Shown here piece after piece: positions 2,838 through 12,639 of a stretch of 32,000 nt of DNA. The notes under the pieces are model-generated. The model searched no databases. It worked only from the letters and a program-made list of their open reading frames with translations, and was not told where the DNA came from. The stretch is from an uncultured archaeon (GTDB lineage: Archaea; Asgardarchaeota; Thorarchaeia; Thorarchaeales; CAZPUN01): contig CAZPUN010000050.1 of assembly GCA_964589775.1 (NCBI GenBank), positions 1 through 32,000 of the forward strand. The letters run 5' to 3'. Every line of letters starts with the position of its first letter. Position 1 is the first letter of the stretch. The position numbers and the translations under genes are program-made.

Positions 2838-4340
2838 ATGCGAAAAGGAAAGTATGCGATTGCCATATCCGTAGCACTATTGGCATTGTTCATCTTACCG
2901 GTCTTCTTATCTTCGAATCATGCTTCTGCAGCGATCATTAGATTGAACAATGTCAATGCGAGAGCTACCGAGAGTTATGTTGTGGAATCCCCACACAACT
3001 ATCCAAACTATTATGACCACACTTGGACAATTACAAAGTCCGGTGCTTCAAAAATCAAAGTACACTTTACGACCATCTCGACAGAGTATGGTTATGATTA
3101 TGTATATGTGTACGATGCGAATCAAAATCTAATAAATCGCTACTCTGGATATTATACTGATGTCTGGAGTGCGGAATCCTCCGGTGATACAATTTATGTC
3201 CGACTAAAGTCAGACTATTCAGTCACACGATGGGGATTCAAGATCGACATGATCTATTACGAGACCGGTGGCTCTACTGGTGGAGGAGACGAGGATGTTG
3301 TTTTAACCTCTGGTACCGCTGAAAATGGTTATCTTAGCGGAACTGGAGATAAGGATTACTACAAGATTGAAGTCCCCTCAGGTGCGACCCAACTAAAAAT
3401 TGTGACCGATGGCCCCTCATCATCAGACTTTGACGTATATGCGAAATTAGGTTCCCGCCCCACAACCTCCACATACGACTATCGTGCATACACAAGCTCA
3501 TCTGATGAAACAATCACAATCAGCAATCCAGGTGCCGGCTGGTGGTACATTATGGTAAATAGCTACTCTGGTTCTGGTAGCTATTCAATTACTGCCACAG
3601 TGACAACCAGCAGTGGCGGTGGCGGCTCTGGTGGCGATGGTGTTACCAGACGATATGCCGTTATCGTAGGTATATCCGACTATAAGGCCATTAGCGATCT
3701 GAGCTACTGTGATGAAGATGCCTCAGATTGGTACAATTATCTACACAACATGGGATATCAGATTGAAGTCTATGGTGACACACATCAGAGTAATTATCCA
3801 CGCTATGATGGATTAGCAACTGAAGCAAATGTAAAAGCAGCAATTAGCAACATGGTACAAAACGCTGATGCCGATGACATTATTGCCTACATTTCATCTG
3901 GACATGGTTCCGGAGATGGTAATGGCAATTCATATCTATGTATGTGGGATTGCAACTCGGGTGAGAACGGTCAAGACGGTAAGCTTCGCGATACCGAGCT
4001 TGCTGACTTGTTTGCCTCTGCTACAGCAAAGGTCTTTATCTTCCTCGACCACTGCTACAGTGGTGGTATGGATGAAGTAGTAACCCAGAACAGCAATGGT
4101 CACAACGTCTTCTTAACAACCACCTGTACTGCTAACGGATATGGTTATGACGACTCAACGCATCACAATGGTGCATGGACATACTGGTTCCTCGAAGCTG
4201 GTTTGATTAACCACTTCCACAGTGATCCAAACACATCAATGGAAGATGCCTATGCATGGGCTGTATCACAATATCCATACAGTGGTGGAGACACCCCACA
4301 GAAATTCGACGGCGATACAAGTTCATTCTTCTACCTATAA
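2838..4340 (+). CDS. Secreted caspase-family (clan CD, C14-like) peptidase with N-terminal CUB and PPC domains
   Basis: Signal peptide ending ASA/A. CUB-like segment ESPHNYPN..WTI...YDYVYVYD...LKSDYSV..WGFKI. PPC segment DYYKIEVP...DFDVYAK...GWWYIMV. Gly/Ser linkers. Caspase fold RYAVIVGISDY, with SGHG (His) and DHCYSGG (Cys). Confidence 0.85.
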   Translation: MRKGKYAIAISVALLALFILPVFLSSNHASAAIIRLNNVNARATESYVVESPHNYPNYYDHTWTITKSGASKIKVHFTTISTEYGYDYVYVYDANQNLINRYSGYYTDVWSAESSGDTIYVRLKSDYSVTRWGFKIDMIYYETGGSTGGGDEDVVLTSGTAENGYLSGTGDKDYYKIEVPSGATQLKIVTDGPSSSDFDVYAKLGSRPTTSTYDYRAYTSSSDETITISNPGAGWWYIMVNSYSGSGSYSITATVTTSSGGGGSGGDGVTRRYAVIVGISDYKAISDLSYCDEDASDWYNYLHNMGYQIEVYGDTHQSNYPRYDGLATEANVKAAISNMVQNADADDIIAYISSGHGSGDGNGNSYLCMWDCNSGENGQDGKLRDTELADLFASATAKVFIFLDHCYSGGMDEVVTQNSNGHNVFLTTTCTANGYGYDDSTHHNGAWTYWFLEAGLINHFHSDPNTSMEDAYAWAVSQYPYSGGDTPQKFDGDTSSFFYL

Positions 4341-4666: not shown

Positions 4667-6601
4667 GTGATAGGGGGCTTACACTTGATTCATAATGTTT
4701 TCATCATCGATATGAACGAAAGAAAAGTAGTGGCACACGATCAATTCTGGAAGATTTATATTTCAGAGCCACAAATAGAAGAGTTTATTGACGGATATTA
4801 CGACCTGATAAGTAGTGGAATTGCAGAAGGAACTCCGATACATGTAGGCCCTCACGTGTTATATTACTCTCGGATCACTGATGAATTGATGCTTGTTTTC
4901 GCCACTGATGGTAAAGATGAAGAGCGTGTTATAAAATTCAAAGTTCGAGAAGGCGCTTCACGTCTCGCAACTGCTCTAAAGGGCAATCAATTTCAATACA
5001 TACGGGATAATCTTTCAGATATTTTAGGCGAATTGATTATCACCCGATTCAAGTTTTCATTTGTCGGTCTTGGTGGTGTTGGAAAAAGTACTCTATTGCG
5101 ATTACTATTTGGTAAGGAGCCTGCACCCGGTGGTTATGTTCCGACAATTAATGTTGCTGTAGATGCTACCGAAACAATTCGATTTGGTACTTATGATTGT
5201 GTCATTTGGGATTTTGGAGGACAGGAAATATTTCATGACCTATGGCAATTTTACTTCCAGGGCACGGATATTATATTTCTTGTGAGCGACTCGTCATTTC
5301 GAAATGTAATGCAGACAAAAACTCTGTTAAGAAACATACGCCGTCAGGCTCCGGCAGTCCCAATTTACATAATTGCAAACAAGCAAGACCTACCTGAAAG
5401 TATGAAGCCAGAGAGCATTCAGAGATTGCTTGGTGTTCCAACATTTCCTATGGTTGCTACAGATAAATCGCGTAGGGAAGAATTTATTCGTCTAATGCTT
5501 GAAGTGGCTACAAAAAGTGCTGGTGTTACCCTGCCCGACCGTCCGATAAGTGACCTCATTGTTGTTCGTAGAAAGACGGAACTTGAAAGTGAAAAACAAA
5601 CAGAGCCTGAAAAGAAAGTCCAAACAATGGAGGAATTTTGGGAAGATACTGAAACGACAACAGAGCCGAAACCTGCTGAGCCTGAAGAGGCGGAAATTTC
5701 TGAAGAAGAGGAGGAACTTCCTGAAGTTTATGAAAAACCCGTTGAAAAGCCAAAAGCACCAGTTGTTAAGTCTATTGCACCCCCTAAGATCTACCGTATA
5801 ATTGTATTTCATAAAGCTACTGGTGAGCTCATTCTCTCCTTAGATTATGACTTTTCTGTTGATATTGAAAACACTACTTTGATTGGAATGGTACTTGCTG
5901 CTGAGCATTTCGGACGTGACATGCATTCTCAGTCTGATGAACCAGTGAAAGCCATCAAACGAAAAGATGATGTGGTTATCGTTGGTATTGGCGAACATAT
6001 CGCAATGGCGATTCTAGCTGCCAAAGGAATTGATGAAAAATCACTTAGCACCAAAATTATAGAACTTGTTAAAGAGTTTGAAGATATATATCAATTTGAT
6101 TTGAACCCTTGGGATGGCAATACTTCGAAATTCGGCATGTTCTCAATTAATATAGTACAACAGTTCCCAATGAAGAAAATCGCATTGGATCAGATTCCGA
6201 GACGTAGAGCTGTGGGGCGTCCATTACCTATTGCGGATCAAATTTTCGGACGCAAGATTGTTGAAGTACAAATGGCTATTGACGGCAAGAAAAAGGTTTC
6301 CGACATTGCGAAAGAGTTAGAAATCACTAAGGAAGAACTTTTGGCGTCTCTGCAAATTCTCTATAATTACAATTGGATCGATCTTAAGAGTGTAATTAAT
6401 GAAAATACGAGATTGAAGAAGATCAAGGATCCAGACCCTGAACTTATTGAATTTTATGGCGATATTATTCTCAAATTTGTAAATCTATGTGATGGTAATA
6501 AACCCCTGAAGCAGATTGTAAATATGATTGGCATGAGTCATAGTGCTATGAGCTTTGTTGCTCAGAAATTAGTTGTAGATGGCGTTCTAGAAATAATTTA
6601 A
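4667..6601 (+). CDS. Multidomain small GTPase: longin-like / Arf-like GTPase / acidic linker / longin / tandem winged helix (NPRL2-like)
   Basis: G1 GLGGVGKST, G2 YVPTI, G3 WDFGGQ and G4 NKQD. Longin-like segments at the N-terminus and from about aa 374. Two C-terminal xDG..wHTH repeats. The true start may be the TTG at 4685. Confidence 0.85.
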   Translation: MIGGLHLIHNVFIIDMNERKVVAHDQFWKIYISEPQIEEFIDGYYDLISSGIAEGTPIHVGPHVLYYSRITDELMLVFATDGKDEERVIKFKVREGASRLATALKGNQFQYIRDNLSDILGELIITRFKFSFVGLGGVGKSTLLRLLFGKEPAPGGYVPTINVAVDATETIRFGTYDCVIWDFGGQEIFHDLWQFYFQGTDIIFLVSDSSFRNVMQTKTLLRNIRRQAPAVPIYIIANKQDLPESMKPESIQRLLGVPTFPMVATDKSRREEFIRLMLEVATKSAGVTLPDRPISDLIVVRRKTELESEKQTEPEKKVQTMEEFWEDTETTTEPKPAEPEEAEISEEEEELPEVYEKPVEKPKAPVVKSIAPPKIYRIIVFHKATGELILSLDYDFSVDIENTTLIGMVLAAEHFGRDMHSQSDEPVKAIKRKDDVVIVGIGEHIAMAILAAKGIDEKSLSTKIIELVKEFEDIYQFDLNPWDGNTSKFGMFSINIVQQFPMKKIALDQIPRRRAVGRPLPIADQIFGRKIVEVQMAIDGKKKVSDIAKELEITKEELLASLQILYNYNWIDLKSVINENTRLKKIKDPDPELIEFYGDIILKFVNLCDGNKPLKQIVNMIGMSHSAMSFVAQKLVVDGVLEII

Positions 6602-6671: not shown

Positions 6672-7226
6672 GTGTTGCGAGGTATGAATATGGTCGATAA
6701 ACGATACAAAATCATATTAGTCTCCAATGAGCCTGAGGTTTGGAGTAACTTTCTCAACCAGACCTGCCAGTATATAGCAGACAAGCTCACTAATGAAATG
6801 GAACGCGGTAGCGTAGATATAATTCCAATTCCTCCAGAATATCTATCCATAACGGGATTGACAAAATCAAAATTTGCAGAAAAATATCGTGAAGTTTTTG
6901 ATGATGACACTATTCTTGTAATTCCCGTATCTAAAACGAACTACCTTGAGATGATGGACCTTCGGCTTAAAATTGCGTCTTTGGATTCTATAATGCGCAG
7001 GAAGATAAAATCTCTTGTCATAATTAATTCTACGGAAGGTAAAATCACACGTGAAGATCTTATGAATTATAAGACATTGGCAGGTTCAACTCTTGGAATT
7101 TTAATTACCAATCCATATCGCATGGAAAACGCAAAATATGTTGCTGATGAACTATATAATTTCATTCACAAGGGTGCGGTTCCGGAAAACATTCTGGTGG
7201 ATTACAGACTCCGATTCTTTAAATAA
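6672..7226 (+). CDS. Hypothetical protein, probable degenerate small-GTPase fold
   Basis: About 180 aa. The YKIILVS start and the alternating beta/alpha pattern match Ras-like G domains, but GKS, DxxG and NKxD are absent. Likely start is the ATG at 6690, after GAGGT. Confidence 0.6.
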   Translation: MLRGMNMVDKRYKIILVSNEPEVWSNFLNQTCQYIADKLTNEMERGSVDIIPIPPEYLSITGLTKSKFAEKYREVFDDDTILVIPVSKTNYLEMMDLRLKIASLDSIMRRKIKSLVIINSTEGKITREDLMNYKTLAGSTLGILITNPYRMENAKYVADELYNFIHKGAVPENILVDYRLRFFK

Positions 7227-7287: not shown

Positions 7288-9426
7288 TTATAAATCAAAT
7301 TTTAGCCTCGTTCCGAATTCTGGAATTAGAACATCGTCTGGTGCTGAAGTTGCTGGCGTATGTACCATTACCTTTTTCCCTTTTAATTGGCTGACGAATT
7401 TTTCCAGTTTTGATGCTGATGAATGTGCGCTTAATCTTGCATAGAAGACACGAGGTGTTGTCTCGACTAATCCCTTGTGTATCCAATATCCGTATGTTCC
7501 TCTAGCAAGAAAGCCCGTGAATACTATTGCTGCTTCTTCATGTTCTTTATAATACTCAAATTGTTTGCGTGCCTCTCCTCCTTCTAACATGCCGCCTCCA
7601 GACACAAGAATATCATCCTTTTTCAGTTCTTTTTCAGTTCTCAAAAGACCTCTGAATTTTCCTGAAACACCACTCATTTTTGTTATGCTTAATGCCATTC
7701 CGGATAGCAATACATTTCGTTCTCGTGAGATGCCGTACTGGTCTAACATCATTACGATCTCTTGTGCTCTTCCGAGTGCAAATGCAGGTATTATGACCGG
7801 TCCATAATTTTGTACGGCTTCTTTAATTACACTGACGGCTTGAAGTCTATCGAAATCTTCGCGTCCCCAATAAGTTCCATCGAAAATTGTAACATCTGCA
7901 TCTGTTGGCAATATTGCGCCTTCATACAAGAATGTATTATCTAAGTTAAAATCGCCCGTGTATAGTATTTTAAAGCCTTCAATATCAATTTCATAGGCAG
8001 CTGAGCCCGGTACATGCTTCGCATCAATAGGCCTTACGGTGACTCCCGGCGATACGATATATTCCTTGTCATATTCTAAAGATACGTATTTACGCTCTAA
8101 TTTATCAATATTCTTTGCTTTTATATTGTGTACTGGATCATCAATATCCTTTTTACGTTTGGCAGGAATTTGCGATACCTTCAAAGAATCGCGAAGCAAC
8201 ATTTTTGAAATTACACCTGTAGGTCCAACACCCATCCATTTCTGGTCATAATATTCAAAGAGCGCTGGGAGTCCTCCAACATGATCAATATGTGCATGAG
8301 TTATCAGTATCGCATCCAAATTTTCAAGGTCCGGAGCCCATTTTGGAATCGATAGATGTGCGACTGAAAAACCGTAATCCAGTAATATAGCTCCATAATC
8401 CGTTTTAATCAAGATTCCGCTTCTTCCAATTCGCGGGCCGCCTAAGAATTCGATCTCAATATGTCTTATTTTTCCACTATATGCTAATGCAGGCATAACG
8501 CCCTTCAGTATTGGCTCAGGAACCTTACTGAAAACCTCATATGATAATGGTTCAATTTCTGGAGGATTTTCAAGTTTGTAGAGTCTAATCGGATACGGTA
8601 AATTATTCTTTGATATTAATCCATATTCCTCATATTTTTTTGAGACCTTATCAAAAGCTTCTTCGAGTGTGAATTTTCCATTACTTTCAATTGAGCTATA
8701 GGCTTTATTTTCAAAATATTTGTAGGATATATGAACGATTCTTCTTGAAGTTTCTTTCACTTTATTATAAATGTAGTTAAATTTCATCTCGGAAAAAATT
8801 TCATCAAGGAATTCCCCTCGTCTGTTAATCAGATCTTTCAATCTAAACGTATCTGATTGGTATAGTATTTCACCATCAATATTGAATTTCTTGAGTACGT
8901 CAATGATATCTTTCTCTTGCATTATGGGGGTGCCTAAGAATGTCGTATATTCCCAGATCTTATTGACGAAATCTTCTGTTTCTTTCCAATCGTCAAAAAG
9001 ACCCAGCCATACAATATCTCGATTGATTTTTTTAATAGTTGCTTTACCTTTATGACCTGCCTTATATAGATTAATAATTACAATTCTAAAATCATCAATT
9101 GTTGATTTCTTAAGAAATATTAGATATGCCATTAAGTTCAGTACGTCTTTAACATATTCTTGTTTAATTTTACGTTTAAAGAGGAGCCTTTTTAATACAT
9201 CTATGAGTTCAGTTCCCTCTTCATCATCAATTTCAAAAAGTGGAAATTCTCCAATCGGCTTTATTTGTAGAGCAAAATTAAATAATTTCTCGCCATTTGG
9301 GAACTGTTTTATTATGTTCATAAAAGTCTCGTCATTCGTAGCGTCATCGGGATTCAAATTTTTCAAGTGTTGATGGATATCACTCAATTTTCTCAGTTGC
9401 GGCTCGCTCATATTTTTCAACCACAT
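7288..9426 (-). CDS. Metallo-beta-lactamase/beta-CASP ribonuclease (aCPSF-like) with an uncharacterised N-terminal extension of about 320 aa
   Basis: Motifs LLDYG, THAHIDH, HVPGSA, YTGDF, DGTY, PAFALGRAQE, LSAH and the final VMVH. Confidence 0.88.
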   Translation of the reverse strand: MWLKNMSEPQLRKLSDIHQHLKNLNPDDATNDETFMNIIKQFPNGEKLFNFALQIKPIGEFPLFEIDDEEGTELIDVLKRLLFKRKIKQEYVKDVLNLMAYLIFLKKSTIDDFRIVIINLYKAGHKGKATIKKINRDIVWLGLFDDWKETEDFVNKIWEYTTFLGTPIMQEKDIIDVLKKFNIDGEILYQSDTFRLKDLINRRGEFLDEIFSEMKFNYIYNKVKETSRRIVHISYKYFENKAYSSIESNGKFTLEEAFDKVSKKYEEYGLISKNNLPYPIRLYKLENPPEIEPLSYEVFSKVPEPILKGVMPALAYSGKIRHIEIEFLGGPRIGRSGILIKTDYGAILLDYGFSVAHLSIPKWAPDLENLDAILITHAHIDHVGGLPALFEYYDQKWMGVGPTGVISKMLLRDSLKVSQIPAKRKKDIDDPVHNIKAKNIDKLERKYVSLEYDKEYIVSPGVTVRPIDAKHVPGSAAYEIDIEGFKILYTGDFNLDNTFLYEGAILPTDADVTIFDGTYWGREDFDRLQAVSVIKEAVQNYGPVIIPAFALGRAQEIVMMLDQYGISRERNVLLSGMALSITKMSGVSGKFRGLLRTEKELKKDDILVSGGGMLEGGEARKQFEYYKEHEEAAIVFTGFLARGTYGYWIHKGLVETTPRVFYARLSAHSSASKLEKFVSQLKGKKVMVHTPATSAPDDVLIPEFGTRLKFDL

Positions 9427-11664: not shown

Positions 11665-12639
11665 TTGACTGAAAAATTTCAAGAGTTAGTTGAAAAAATT
11701 GAAGTATTTCTCTTTAGAAACGATGGAGTCTGCATATTATCGAAAACCAAAAGGTCTCCAGAATTATTTACGAGCATGCTAGCTGCAATTGAAGCCTTTA
11801 CACATACGGTCTCCGGTCTCGGTGCTGAAGAAGTAACTATGGGTGATAATAGAATTAATTACTCAAGAAATGGAGATATCGTCTGTGCTGTAATAACGCC
11901 TGAGTCTTTTGATCCGCACATTGGGAACGCAATCTCAAAATCTATCGCTGATATTTTTGTTTCAAAATATGGCTCATATCTTGCATTTTGGAAAGGCAAT
12001 CTGGATGATTTTAGCGATTTTTCAACCGAGATCGATGATATAATCCATTCTGTTCTTTCTTCGTTTGGTGAGAAAATTGTATCTTCCCACATAGTATCAG
12101 TTCATGAACTTATACGAATGTATGGTGAAGACGTTTCACAAATTCTCTATAGTATTATCATGAATATTCCTATTGTTATTTATGGTGATCGTAAGAAAGT
12201 AGAAGGAATAATTAATCAACTTTCCAACTTTTTCATAAAGGATGCGCCCAACCTATCATGGGTAGAACCTGAACTGGTAAATGAGCTCATAAAATCTCAT
12301 GATTTCGTAATTATTGGTAGCTCAGTTCCACCCACCGATACTACAAATGTCTTGATTCTATCTACTAATAAAGTTGAAAATAAATTAACTGAAAATAAAT
12401 ATCTCCAAAAAATTGCGAATGTGTTATTAGAGAATTTAGATGATTGGAATGATGAAGAGGCTCACAATTTTCTGTCTATGAAAAAGGCTGAATTCTTTAA
12501 ATGTGTGGAACTAGCCGAAGAATTAATTAGCAAATACAATTTTTCTGTTGAAGAGTTAAGCAAAATTCTTGAAATCTCGGAAGATATGTTGTTCCTTGTT
12601 TATGCAGTAGCAAAACGAAATATTGAATCTTCGCAATAA
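11665..12639 (+). CDS. Longin plus DENN/folliculin-like domain protein
   Basis: N-terminal longin pattern (VFLFRNDGVCIL..LFTSMLAAIEAF...F..KYG....WKG...DF..F). It is followed by a core-DENN-like pattern (LIRMYG..VSQILYSII...PIVIYG..KKV..II.QL...FVIIG). Confidence 0.65.
   Translation: MTEKFQELVEKIEVFLFRNDGVCILSKTKRSPELFTSMLAAIEAFTHTVSGLGAEEVTMGDNRINYSRNGDIVCAVITPESFDPHIGNAISKSIADIFVSKYGSYLAFWKGNLDDFSDFSTEIDDIIHSVLSSFGEKIVSSHIVSVHELIRMYGEDVSQILYSIIMNIPIVIYGDRKKVEGIINQLSNFFIKDAPNLSWVEPELVNELIKSHDFVIIGSSVPPTDTTNVLILSTNKVENKLTENKYLQKIANVLLENLDDWNDEEAHNFLSMKKAEFFKCVELAEELISKYNFSVEELSKILEISEDMLFLVYAVAKRNIESSQ

What the first reader, a model, noticed from the sequence alone, without database searches (positions are those of the whole stretch)
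4667..6601. Small GTPase fused to a longin plus NPRL2/GATOR1-like winged-helix module
Seen: an intact Arf-type G domain (WDFGGQ, NKQD) between two longin-like domains, a Glu/Pro-rich linker and two wHTH repeats. The first repeat (from aa 538: IDGKKKVSDIAKELEITKEELLASLQILYNYNWIDL) follows the pattern I recall for NPRL2 (IDG...I..I..E.....LV...IQ.L.YY..V.L). Known: longin plus winged helix is the NPRL2/NPRL3 architecture in GATOR1, the GAP for Rag GTPases, and longins pair up as GTPase platforms. Inference: a single-chain GTPase-plus-regulator, with the two longins dimerising intramolecularly. This would be a possible Rosetta-stone for ancestral Rag/GATOR-type signalling.
Basis: partly seen in the sequence, partly recalled or inferred. 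Interest (0 to 1): 0.82.

Follow-up and report, generated by a model that had tools for sequence, protein, structure and literature searches.

The report
Longin–Arf-like GTPase fused to NPRL-like module
A core gene of one Asgard (Thorarchaeota-type) order joins an intact Arf-like GTPase, flanked by two longin domains, to a longin-plus-two-winged-helix module built like the eukaryotic GATOR1 subunits NPRL2/NPRL3; the parts were known separately in Asgard archaea, but their union in one protein links such modules physically to a small GTPase.

Summary
ORF 4667-6601 (probable start TTG 4685) encodes an adaptor-type longin, an intact Arf-like G domain, a disordered acidic/Pro-rich linker, a second longin and two winged helices. 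The C-terminal 275 aa fold confidently as one compact module (pLDDT 92.8, pTM 0.84). Its eight best Foldseek matches in the PDB are all NPRL2/NPRL3/Npr2/Npr3 chains, aligned over the whole module.

The likeness is one of architecture only. Sequence evidence is marginal and unstable (E 0.0044, then 0.52; hhalign 27%). Generic wHTH families score as well or better. The Pfam NPR2 model finds nothing. NPRL2's GP motif and arginine finger are absent. The longin alone resembles SNARE, Fuzzy and TRAPP longins more than NPRL longins.

'NPRL2-like proteins' in Thor MAGs (Liu et al.) and longin-GTPase fusions (Tran et al. 2024) are already published. The three-part fusion was not found described.

It occurs in every genome searched of this order (49/49 in the sister family) and was not found elsewhere in the phylum sample. 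Such modules are usually encoded in twos in the relatives: a paralog with a tentatively degenerate G domain lies upstream of the fusion in 11/12 related loci, and stand-alone modules form tandem pairs in 16/20 genomes. This favours pairing in trans, as in NPRL2-NPRL3, over the proposed intramolecular longin dimer.

The parts
4667..6601 (+). Whole ORF (644 aa from GTG 4667; stop codon 6599-6601)
   Evidence: full-length orthologs at 45-49% identity in 49/49 genomes of the sister family
4685..4687 (+). Probable true start codon TTG (codon 7), with GGGGGC a few bases upstream
   Evidence: homologs start MIHNV at this position
4685..5038 (+). N-terminal adaptor-type longin domain (aa 7-124), carrying the family-invariant motif T-D-G-x-D-E-x-R (aa 80-87)
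5039..5554 (+). Arf-like G domain (aa 125-296)
   Evidence: Pfam Arf 6.6e-20; Arf6 5.6e-15; Arf6 and GerdArfR1 at 29-30% identity
5066..5092 (+). P-loop GLGGVGKST (aa 134-142)
   Evidence: invariant
5207..5224 (+). G3 / switch II motif WDFGGQ with the catalytic Gln186 (aa 181-186)
   Evidence: W181, D182, F183, G185, Q186 invariant
5378..5389 (+). G4 motif NKQD (aa 238-241)
   Evidence: invariant
5555..5782 (+). Disordered acidic, Pro-rich tether (aa 297-372)
   Evidence: pLDDT below 50; 30% Asp/Glu, 12% Pro, net charge -12; poorly conserved in the family
5783..6181 (+). Second longin domain (aa 373-505), first part of the NPRL2/3-like module
6182..6238 (+). Conserved basic, Pro-containing connector (aa 506-524; R514 invariant, R512 nearly invariant); includes a short beta-strand
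   Evidence: aligns with the NPRL2 segment around D-V-P-V-F
6239..6430 (+). Winged helix 1 (aa 525-588), with the IDGKKKV... motif
   Evidence: weak Pfam HTH_5 hit
6431..6598 (+). Winged helix 2 (aa 589-644)
   Evidence: weak Pfam HTH_47 hit

Best explanation
The gene encodes a multidomain small-GTPase switch made of two units joined by a flexible acidic tether.

Unit 1 is an adaptor-type (delta-COP / AP mu-like) longin followed directly, with no linker, by an intact, presumably GTP-hydrolysing Arf-like G domain. This unit also exists on its own, as a 401-aa paralog in this genome and as ~300-aa proteins in another family of the phylum.

Unit 2 is a compact longin + winged-helix + winged-helix module with the domain order of NPRL2/NPRL3. 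It also exists as stand-alone proteins.

Inferred mechanism: unit 2 is a pairing platform. Its longin pairs with the longin of a second, paralogous module supplied in trans. In this genome that would be the stand-alone 275-aa protein on contig C21, or another copy of the fusion itself. In related genomes it would be the protein encoded immediately upstream. The result would be an NPRL2-NPRL3-like or RagA-RagC-like dimer that docks on the tethered G domain and either reads or sets its nucleotide state.

Because the NPRL2-type GP motif and Arg finger are missing, the module is more likely a scaffold, GEF-like platform or effector-binding platform (like most longin pairs, or like the non-catalytic NPRL3) than an NPRL2-type GAP.

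Shown here: the domain composition, intact GTPase motifs, the compact module, the architectural match to NPRL2/3, order-wide conservation, and the encoding of modules in pairs. Inferred: dimerisation, contact with the G domain, the direction of regulation, and the cellular output.
For: Domains and motifs.

Compact module: pLDDT 92.8, pTM 0.84.

Units exist separately: a longin-G paralog at 48% identity over aa 7-298; stand-alone modules.

Modules come in twos: an upstream same-strand paralog in 11/12 related loci, whose C-terminal 260 aa is homologous to the module (hhalign 99.5%, E 4e-22); stand-alone modules as adjacent tandem pairs in 16/20 related genomes.

Core gene: 21/21 genomes of the order in one sample, 49/49 in the sister family in another.

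The winged helices are neutral to acidic (family median net charge 0 and -2), which fits protein binding better than DNA binding.
Against: No contact map or PAE was available, so no interface, cis or trans, is demonstrated. The full-length model has pTM 0.42.

This genome itself lacks the upstream paralog and has only one full stand-alone module, so the trans partner here is conjectural.

Sequence homology to NPRL2 is not established: E 0.0044 with one profile and 0.52 with a richer one; hhalign 27%; no Pfam NPR2 match.

The longin alone is not especially NPRL-like.

Confidence: 0.5

Rival explanations
1. One reading: a self-contained single-chain switch. The N-terminal and C-terminal longins dimerise within one molecule to form the platform for the G domain lying between them, and the module acts on the G domain in cis (GAP-like autoregulation).
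For: The two longins flank the G domain, and a ~75-aa flexible tether would allow folding back. Longin/roadblock pairs are the usual GTPase platforms (PMC3747258; PMC10933270). This genome lacks the upstream paralog.
Against: The N-terminal longin runs straight into the G domain with no linker, and this longin-G unit is conserved in paralogs that have no second longin, so it does not need the C-terminal longin. The two longins show no detectable sequence relationship to each other (hhalign 0.4%). AF2 gave no confident global arrangement (pTM 0.42). Modules are encoded in twos in related genomes. No GP motif or Arg finger is conserved.
Confidence: 0.2
2. The resemblance to NPRL2/3 is convergent domain shuffling. 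A generic longin was joined to generic prokaryotic PqqD/DUF742/TrmB-type winged helices, and the system is better seen as a fused version of the prokaryotic roadblock + wHTH + Ras-like GTPase sets (MglB-MglA; the Streptomyces conservon CvnB-CvnC-CvnD). It would have no special descent relationship to GATOR1.
For: Generic wHTH families score as well as or better than NPRL2: HTH_47 5.9e-10, TrmB 1.4e-6 (above its cut-off in stand-alone members), DUF742 in 6 of 17 members with best E 9.7e-5, PqqD 7.9e-4. ZitR and PH1519 score E 0.0063 against NPRL2's 0.0044. NPRL2 falls to E 0.52 with a richer profile. The longin alone is closest to SNARE, Fuzzy and TRAPP longins. A Streptomyces roadblock and MglB are among the Foldseek hits. 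The ESM Atlas finds only archaeal neighbours.
Confidence: 0.3
3. A GTPase-controlled transcription factor. The two C-terminal winged helices bind DNA, as TrmB/ArsR/MarR-type archaeal regulators do, and the nucleotide state of the G domain gates that binding.
For: Weak Pfam hits to ArsR (HTH_5), TrmB, MarR, IclR and HTH_24. TrmB passes its gathering score in stand-alone relatives (26.9 and 28.5 bits against 25.6). [quoted passage not shown]
Against: The repeats are neutral to acidic (family median net charge 0 and -2; in the window protein wHTH2 has pI 4.65 and the whole module pI 5.8). The third helix, the putative recognition helix, of wHTH1 (KEELLASLQILYNY, from the sequence) is acidic and hydrophobic. 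In the window protein itself no DNA-binding family reaches its cut-off. No conserved operator or target gene was seen, and the only conserved neighbours are the paralog and a convergent beta-CASP gene.
Confidence: 0.1

Closest known systems
NPRL2 / NPRL3 (GATOR1; yeast Npr2 / Npr3 of the SEA complex)
   Same: An N-terminal longin followed by repeated winged helices in the same order. They are the best whole-module structural matches. There is a shared xDGxxxhxxI...G(W/V)h pattern and a Pro-containing strand before wHTH1. They are paralogs that work as a pair, paralleled here by paired genes. They act on a small GTPase.
   Different: No significant sequence match to the Pfam NPR2 model. The GP motif and Arg finger are absent. 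The module is shorter: two wHTH, aligned to NPRL2 residues ~6-326 of 380. The longin is not specifically NPRL-like. The module is covalently fused to its presumed client GTPase, which is Arf-like rather than Rag-like. No DEPDC5 counterpart was sought.
Asgard 'NPRL2-like proteins' (asCOGs of Liu et al., bioRxiv 10.1101/2020.10.19.343400; Nature 2021)
   Same: [quoted passage not shown] The stand-alone relatives found here and the paralogs fused to TPR and TackOD1 domains fit that description.
   Different: The text of that paper mentions fusions to two-component domains but not to a GTPase. Its Fig. 5c and supplementary tables are not held, so whether this exact architecture is drawn there could not be checked.
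Asgard longin- or roadblock-fused Rag/Arf-like GTPases (Tran et al. 2024, PMC10933270; LokiRagO, PDB 8yl2)
   Different: Here the C-terminal domain is a longin, not a roadblock. It is separated from G by a ~75-aa disordered tether and is followed by two winged helices.
Arf family GTPases, including Asgard ArfR (GerdArfR1, PDB 8oum/8oul)
   Same: Passes the Pfam Arf cut-off. Has WDxGGQ and NKxD motifs, and switch II (xLWxxYF) resembles that of Arf (from memory). It is 29-30% identical to Arf6 and GerdArfR1.
   Different: No N-terminal amphipathic helix; a longin domain occupies that position. Additional C-terminal domains are present.
Prokaryotic roadblock + wHTH + Ras-like GTPase sets: MglB-MglA and the Streptomyces conservon CvnB (roadblock) - CvnC (DUF742) - CvnD (GTPase). 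The conservon composition is from my own knowledge, not checked here.
   Same: The same three kinds of part. DUF742 gives sub-threshold hits in 6 of 17 module relatives. MglB and a Streptomyces roadblock appear among the structural hits.
   Different: Those are separate proteins with a roadblock rather than a longin and an MglA-type rather than an Arf-type GTPase. All DUF742 scores are below the cut-off.
Longin-GTPase pairs SRX-SRbeta and the AP / COPI small and medium subunits with Arf1
   Same: The N-terminal domain is closest to delta-COP and the AP mu N-terminal longins. SRalpha-SRX and SRbeta also appear among the hits.
   Different: In those systems the longin and the GTPase are separate chains. 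No interface could be examined here.

Membership tests
Arf family small GTPase (Pfam PF00025) | Score above the curated cut-off of the family model | tested here: met
   71.7 bits against a cut-off of 22.3, E 6.6e-20, aa 127-259; best PDB sequence hits are Arf6 and Arf1
Arf family small GTPase (Pfam PF00025) | Intact G1-G4 motifs, including the catalytic Gln of DxGGQ | tested here: met
   GLGGVGKST, T160, WDFGGQ and NKQD; the key residues are invariant in 35 homologs
Arf family small GTPase (Pfam PF00025) | N-terminal amphipathic (often myristoylated) helix coupled to the interswitch toggle | tested here: not met
   The 124 residues before the G domain form a longin domain. The interswitch toggle itself cannot be tested with these tools.
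Rag/Gtr GTPases (Pfam PF04670) | Score above the curated cut-off of the family model | tested here: not met
   18.4 bits against a cut-off of 22
Rag/Gtr GTPases (Pfam PF04670) | G domain followed by a C-terminal roadblock dimerisation domain | tested here: inconclusive
   Rag/Gtr chains are the top Foldseek hits over ~375 columns, and LokiRagO aligns over G plus longin 2. However, the domain here is a longin, lies behind a 75-aa tether, and the rmsd is above 20 A.
Longin domain (N-terminal, aa 7-124) | beta2-alpha-beta3-alpha2 fold that superposes on solved longins | tested here: met
Longin domain (second, aa 373-505) | beta2-alpha-beta3-alpha2 fold that superposes on solved longins better than on roadblocks | tested here: met
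NPRL2/NPRL3 (GATOR1 subunits; Pfam NPR2 PF06218) | Architecture: N-terminal longin followed by two or more winged-helix repeats (PMC3747258) | tested here: met
   Model at pLDDT 92.8. NPRL2/3 and Npr2/3 are the top 8 Foldseek hits over 331-371 columns. NPRL2 aligns over 236 and Npr2 over 237 of 275 residues.
NPRL2/NPRL3 (GATOR1 subunits; Pfam NPR2 PF06218) | Significant sequence match to the family model | tested here: not met
   PF06218 has no match at E up to 10 in the whole genome. It is also absent from the permissive hmmscan table of the window's own module, and from the families shown for the 17 module relatives (top 25 of 61) and the 8 upstream paralogs (all 18 shown).
NPRL2/NPRL3 (GATOR1 subunits; Pfam NPR2 PF06218) | Profile-level homology to NPRL2 | tested here: inconclusive
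   Profile A2 against PDB sequences: NPRL2 is the top hit at E 0.0044 and Npr2 scores 0.0088. The richer profile A3 gives E 0.52. hhalign against a vertebrate-only NPRL2 alignment gives 27% probability over 65 columns of wHTH1.
NPRL2/NPRL3 (GATOR1 subunits; Pfam NPR2 PF06218) | Catalytic GAP features of NPRL2: the GP motif at the start of beta2, and the arginine finger (R78; residue number and placement in the beta4-beta5 loop are from my own knowledge and reading of the vertebrate alignment, not from a structural superposition) | tested here: not met
   Longin 2 reads TGEL at the GP position in the window protein and G[ML][FSY] in most of the family. At the putative Arg-finger loop it reads GIGEH in the window protein and VEKSxHF in the family. 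The N-terminal longin has neither feature. Positions were assigned from predicted secondary structure, not from a structural superposition. NPRL3 also lacks the GP motif.
NPRL2/NPRL3 (GATOR1 subunits; Pfam NPR2 PF06218) | Works as a heterodimer of two paralogs, in complex with DEPDC5, as a GAP for a Rag GTPase | not testable with these tools
   Only a genomic hint: paralogous modules are encoded in adjacent pairs in related genomes. No DEPDC5-like protein was sought.
Conservon CvnC / DUF742 (PF05331) | Score above the curated cut-off | tested here: not met
   Best 22.6 bits against a cut-off of 27, in a relative. No hit for the window's own module.

The most novel reading that the evidence does not exclude
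The fusion and the paralog encoded next to it in related genomes (a degenerate G domain + longin + 2 wHTH) form a heterodimer that is at once Rag-like (two G + longin chains, one of them inactive) and GATOR1-like (two longin + wHTH chains). The Rag GTPase dimer and its NPRL2/NPRL3 regulator would then descend from one ancestral kind of protein that later split, and this Thorarchaeal gene pair would preserve the unsplit state.
Probability: 0.1. Interest if true: 0.85.

Novelty: new variant of a known kind. Interest (0 to 1): 0.55.

Why it matters
How the eukaryotic longin-based GTPase regulators (GATOR1, folliculin, C9orf72-SMCR8) and their client GTPases arose is an open question. Asgard 'NPRL2-like' proteins have so far had no known client. 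A gene fusion is the classic evidence that two proteins work together. Here an NPRL2/3-shaped module is covalently tied to an intact Arf-like GTPase in a gene kept by every genome searched of one Asgard order. That nominates a concrete client GTPase and gives a single recombinant protein, plus one or two partner proteins, in which regulation of a small GTPase by an NPRL-like module can be measured directly. The missing Arg finger also cautions against assuming that such archaeal modules are GAPs.

Tried and rejected
1. Pfam NPR2 (PF06218) against the whole genome: no match.

2. A permissive Pfam scan of the 17 module relatives and the 8 upstream paralogs showed no NPR2 or NPR3 family. The only NPRL-named hit anywhere was HTH_NPRL3 at E 0.002, below its cut-off, in one other paralog (L011).

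3. A richer archaeal profile (A3) against PDB sequences weakened the NPRL2 hit instead of strengthening it.

4. hhalign against NPRL2 was limited by a vertebrate-only alignment (Neff 1.4); diverse NPRL2/NPRL3 sequences could not be obtained.

5. The ESM Atlas showed only archaeal hypothetical clusters for the module and nothing useful for the N-terminal domain.

6. The downstream 184-aa ORF as a pseudo-GTPase partner (a lead from earlier notes) is rejected. It has no counterpart in 20 related genomes or in 9/9 syntenic loci, and hhalign against the G domain gives 0.6%.

7. The neighbours of the stand-alone module on C21 are unrelated (a zinc ribbon protein and DUF2797).

8. The N-terminal region of the upstream paralog as a degenerate G domain is only tentative: hhalign alone gives 53%, E 1.3e-4, with controls below 1%, but HMMER domain scores are only 3.5-7.7 bits.

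9. Cis against trans longin pairing could not be tested, because the structure tool returns no contacts or PAE.

10. The look-up of encoding contigs and the look-up of sequencing runs were closed, so there is no metagenomic context and no expression evidence.

11. NCBIfam names only a generic small GTP-binding domain.
Full report
**What is there.** The window carries an intact ORF at 4667-6601 on the + strand, 644 aa from GTG. The first six codons are probably not translated. Codon 7 is TTG (4685), GGGGGC lies just upstream, and the homologs begin MIHNV at exactly this point. Pfam recognises only the middle of the protein: Arf, E 6.6e-20, 71.7 bits, aa 127-259. NCBIfam recognises only a generic small-GTP domain. 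The nucleotide-binding motifs are complete: GLGGVGKST, T160, WDFGGQ with the catalytic Gln, and NKQD. Their key residues are invariant across 35 homologs. By sequence the G domain is Arf-like. Arf6 is the best solved relative (5.6e-15), the domain is 29-30% identical to Arf6 and to the Asgard GerdArfR1, and the Rag model stays below its cut-off (18.4 against 22 bits).

**Domain structure.** AlphaFold2 on a 35-sequence alignment of the whole protein gave mean pLDDT 68.8 and pTM 0.42.
- aa 8-123 have longin topology at pLDDT 80-90.
- aa 126-284 form the G domain.
- aa 297-371 are disordered (pLDDT below 50; 30% Asp/Glu and 12% Pro).
- aa 375-499 form a second longin-type domain.
- Two winged helices follow.

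**Is the C-terminal module NPRL2/3-like?** At the level of architecture, yes.
- Foldseek against 350,542 PDB chains returns NPRL2, NPRL3, Npr2 and Npr3 as the eight best hits (E 3.6e-6 to 1.2e-4), each aligned over 331-371 columns. Single-longin hits begin only at 2.7e-4.
- The published definition of NPRL2/3 is an N-terminal longin followed by 'two or more repeated' winged HTH domains (PMC3747258).

At the level of sequence and catalytic detail, no.
- A 17-sequence profile of the module places human NPRL2 first among PDB sequences, but only at E 0.0044, with yeast Npr2 at 0.0088. The bacterial and archaeal regulators ZitR and PH1519 score 0.0063.
- A richer 30-sequence profile drops NPRL2 to E 0.52.
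- hhalign against a vertebrate-only NPRL2 alignment gives 27% probability over wHTH1 alone.
- The Pfam NPR2 model finds nothing in the genome.
- Generic families match the repeats better: HTH_47 5.9e-10, TrmB 1.4e-6, DUF742 9.7e-5, PqqD 7.9e-4.
From my own knowledge it resembles a pattern common to PqqD/DUF742-type winged helices, which fits those weak hits.
- Taken alone, the longin is closer to SNARE, Fuzzy and TRAPP longins, and no NPRL chain reaches the top 50 by rigid-body Z.
- The two features that mark the GAP longins NPRL2, FLCN and SMCR8 are a GP motif at the start of beta2 and an arginine finger (PMC12290439). Neither is conserved in either longin. Longin 2 reads TGEL here, and mostly G[ML][FSY] in the family, at the GP position. 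At what I take to be the Arg-finger loop (beta4-beta5; placement from my own knowledge and predicted secondary structure) it reads GIGEH here and VEKSxHF in the family.

**Prior art.** Liu et al. [quoted passage not shown] They also report NPRL2-like longins fused to two-component signalling domains, and Rag-family GTPases fused to longins. Tran et al. [quoted passage not shown] I found no text describing a GTPase fused to the complete NPRL2-like module. Fig. 5c and the supplements of Liu et al. are not held, so this cannot be excluded.

**Distribution and relatives.** More than 230 full-length homologs of 640-660 aa exist at about 46% identity, mostly labelled Thorarchaeota and annotated only as GTP-binding or Arf-like.
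- In whole genomes the complete fusion is present in 21/21 genomes of the order in one sample, and in 49/49 of the sister family plus this genome in a 201-genome sample of the phylum. It was not found outside the order in those searched.
- In that sample another family has only ~300-aa longin-G proteins, and the rest show only G-domain hits.
- The two halves also exist apart. This genome has a 401-aa longin-G paralog (48% identity over aa 7-298) with an acidic tail and no module.
- It also has a stand-alone 275-aa module on contig C21 (E 7e-92 to the module profile).
- The longin of the module belongs to a family with 23 matches in this 2.16-Mb genome, some fused to TPR repeats or a TackOD1 output domain. 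This agrees with Liu et al.

**Neighbourhood.**
- The convergent beta-CASP gene downstream is syntenic in 9/9 related loci.
- The 184-aa ORF at 6672-7226, which earlier notes proposed as a pseudo-GTPase partner, is absent from all of those loci and from 20 related genomes. It shows no similarity to a G domain (hhalign 0.6%), so that idea is rejected.
- In 11/12 related loci a 430-470-aa gene lies directly upstream on the same strand. Its C-terminal ~260 aa are homologous to the module (hhalign 99.5%, E 4e-22, 258 columns).
- The N-terminal ~190 aa of that upstream protein align, tentatively, with strands beta2-beta6 of the G domain, with the P-loop, DxxGQ and NKxD motifs all replaced. hhalign on this region alone gives 53%, E 1.3e-4, with controls against both longins below 1%. 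HMMER domain scores are only 3.5-7.7 bits.
- This genome lacks that gene; a caspase/CUB/PPC gene sits in its place.
- Stand-alone modules occur as adjacent same-strand tandem pairs in 16/20 related genomes.

Modules of this kind are therefore usually encoded in twos in the relatives, as NPRL2 and NPRL3 are two paralogs that act as a dimer.

**Most likely mechanism.** I read the protein as a small-GTPase switch built from two units. One is a rigid longin-G unit. The other is an NPRL2/3-shaped pairing platform on a flexible acidic tether. The platform most plausibly pairs through its longin with a second module supplied in trans: the stand-alone C21 protein or another copy of the fusion in this genome, or the upstream paralog in relatives. 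The pair would engage the tethered G domain. Because there is no conserved GP motif or Arg finger, a scaffold, GEF-like or effector-platform role (as for most longin pairs and for NPRL3) is more likely than an NPRL2-type GAP. The neutral-to-acidic winged helices fit protein binding better than DNA binding. Candidate functional residues are the invariant TDGxDExR loop (aa 80-87) and R99 in the N-terminal longin, and the R512/R514 connector before wHTH1. Confidence is 0.5.

**Rivals.**
It is weakened because the longin-G unit exists without a second longin, and by the paired genes and the low pTM.
- Convergent assembly from generic parts, closer in spirit to MglB-MglA or conservon systems (0.3). 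This concerns descent rather than mechanism.
- A GTPase-gated DNA-binding regulator (0.1).

**Verdict.** The resemblance to NPRL2/3 is real but architectural, and it is already published for stand-alone Thor proteins. What appears new is the covalent link of such a module to an intact Arf-like GTPase in an order-wide core gene, together with the paired-paralog gene arrangement. This is a new variant of a known kind, of moderate interest.

Noticed in passing
L014:8-1420 (+), and the equivalent ORFs in L015, L016, L018-L022 and L027-L029: In related genomes a 430-470-aa gene directly upstream of the fusion, on the same strand, encodes a paralogous longin + 2 wHTH module. It is preceded by ~190 aa that align tentatively with a G domain that has lost its P-loop, DxxGQ and NKxD motifs, making it a candidate pseudo-GTPase. 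It is present in 11/12 related loci and absent from this window.
   Followed up: partly
Related genomes, for example G006:C15:26845-28617 and G009:C1:1471157-1472914: Stand-alone longin + 2 wHTH proteins (~280-310 aa) occur as adjacent same-strand tandem pairs in 16 of 20 related genomes, reminiscent of the NPRL2/NPRL3 paralog pair. This genome has only one full copy (C21:114662-115486) plus a 203-aa longin + 1 wHTH protein (L003:1492-2100, contig C54).
   Followed up: partly
window 6672-7226 (+): This 184-aa ORF lies between the fusion gene and the beta-CASP gene. It has no counterpart in 20 related genomes or in the syntenic loci, no Pfam family, and no detectable similarity to a G domain. 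It is a lineage-specific insertion of unknown function, not the pseudo-GTPase partner proposed earlier.
   Followed up: yes
window 2838-4340 (+): A gene with PPC, CUB and caspase (Peptidase_C14) domains occupies the position where related genomes carry the paralogous module gene. This suggests a local replacement or rearrangement in this smaller (2.16 Mb) genome.
   Followed up: no
window 11665-12639 (+): This 324-aa ORF contains another copy of the same longin-type domain (module-profile positions 17-128, E 2.2e-7). The rest of the protein is unassigned.
   Followed up: no
L004:13-1884, L005:37-1881, L007:1498-2703, L011:1477-2766 (same genome): The longin of the module belongs to a family with 23 matches in this genome. 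Members are fused to TPR repeats (624 and 615 aa) or to a TackOD1 output domain (402 aa). One 430-aa protein has sub-threshold hits to Fuz_longin_1 and to HTH_NPRL3 (E 0.002).
   Followed up: partly
L024:1302-2507 (-) = G000:C21: A 401-aa paralog consists of the same longin-G unit (48% identity over aa 7-298) with an acidic tail and no C-terminal module. In related genomes the corresponding paralogs are 560-680 aa, with an unassigned C-terminal half that does not match the module.
   Followed up: partly
window 7288-9426 (-): The convergent beta-CASP / metallo-beta-lactamase gene is syntenic with the fusion gene in 9/9 related loci. BLAST matches cover only ~410-490 residues of the window's 712-aa protein; the relatives' loci were cut at about that length, so whether they lack its long N-terminal region is not known.
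   Followed up: no
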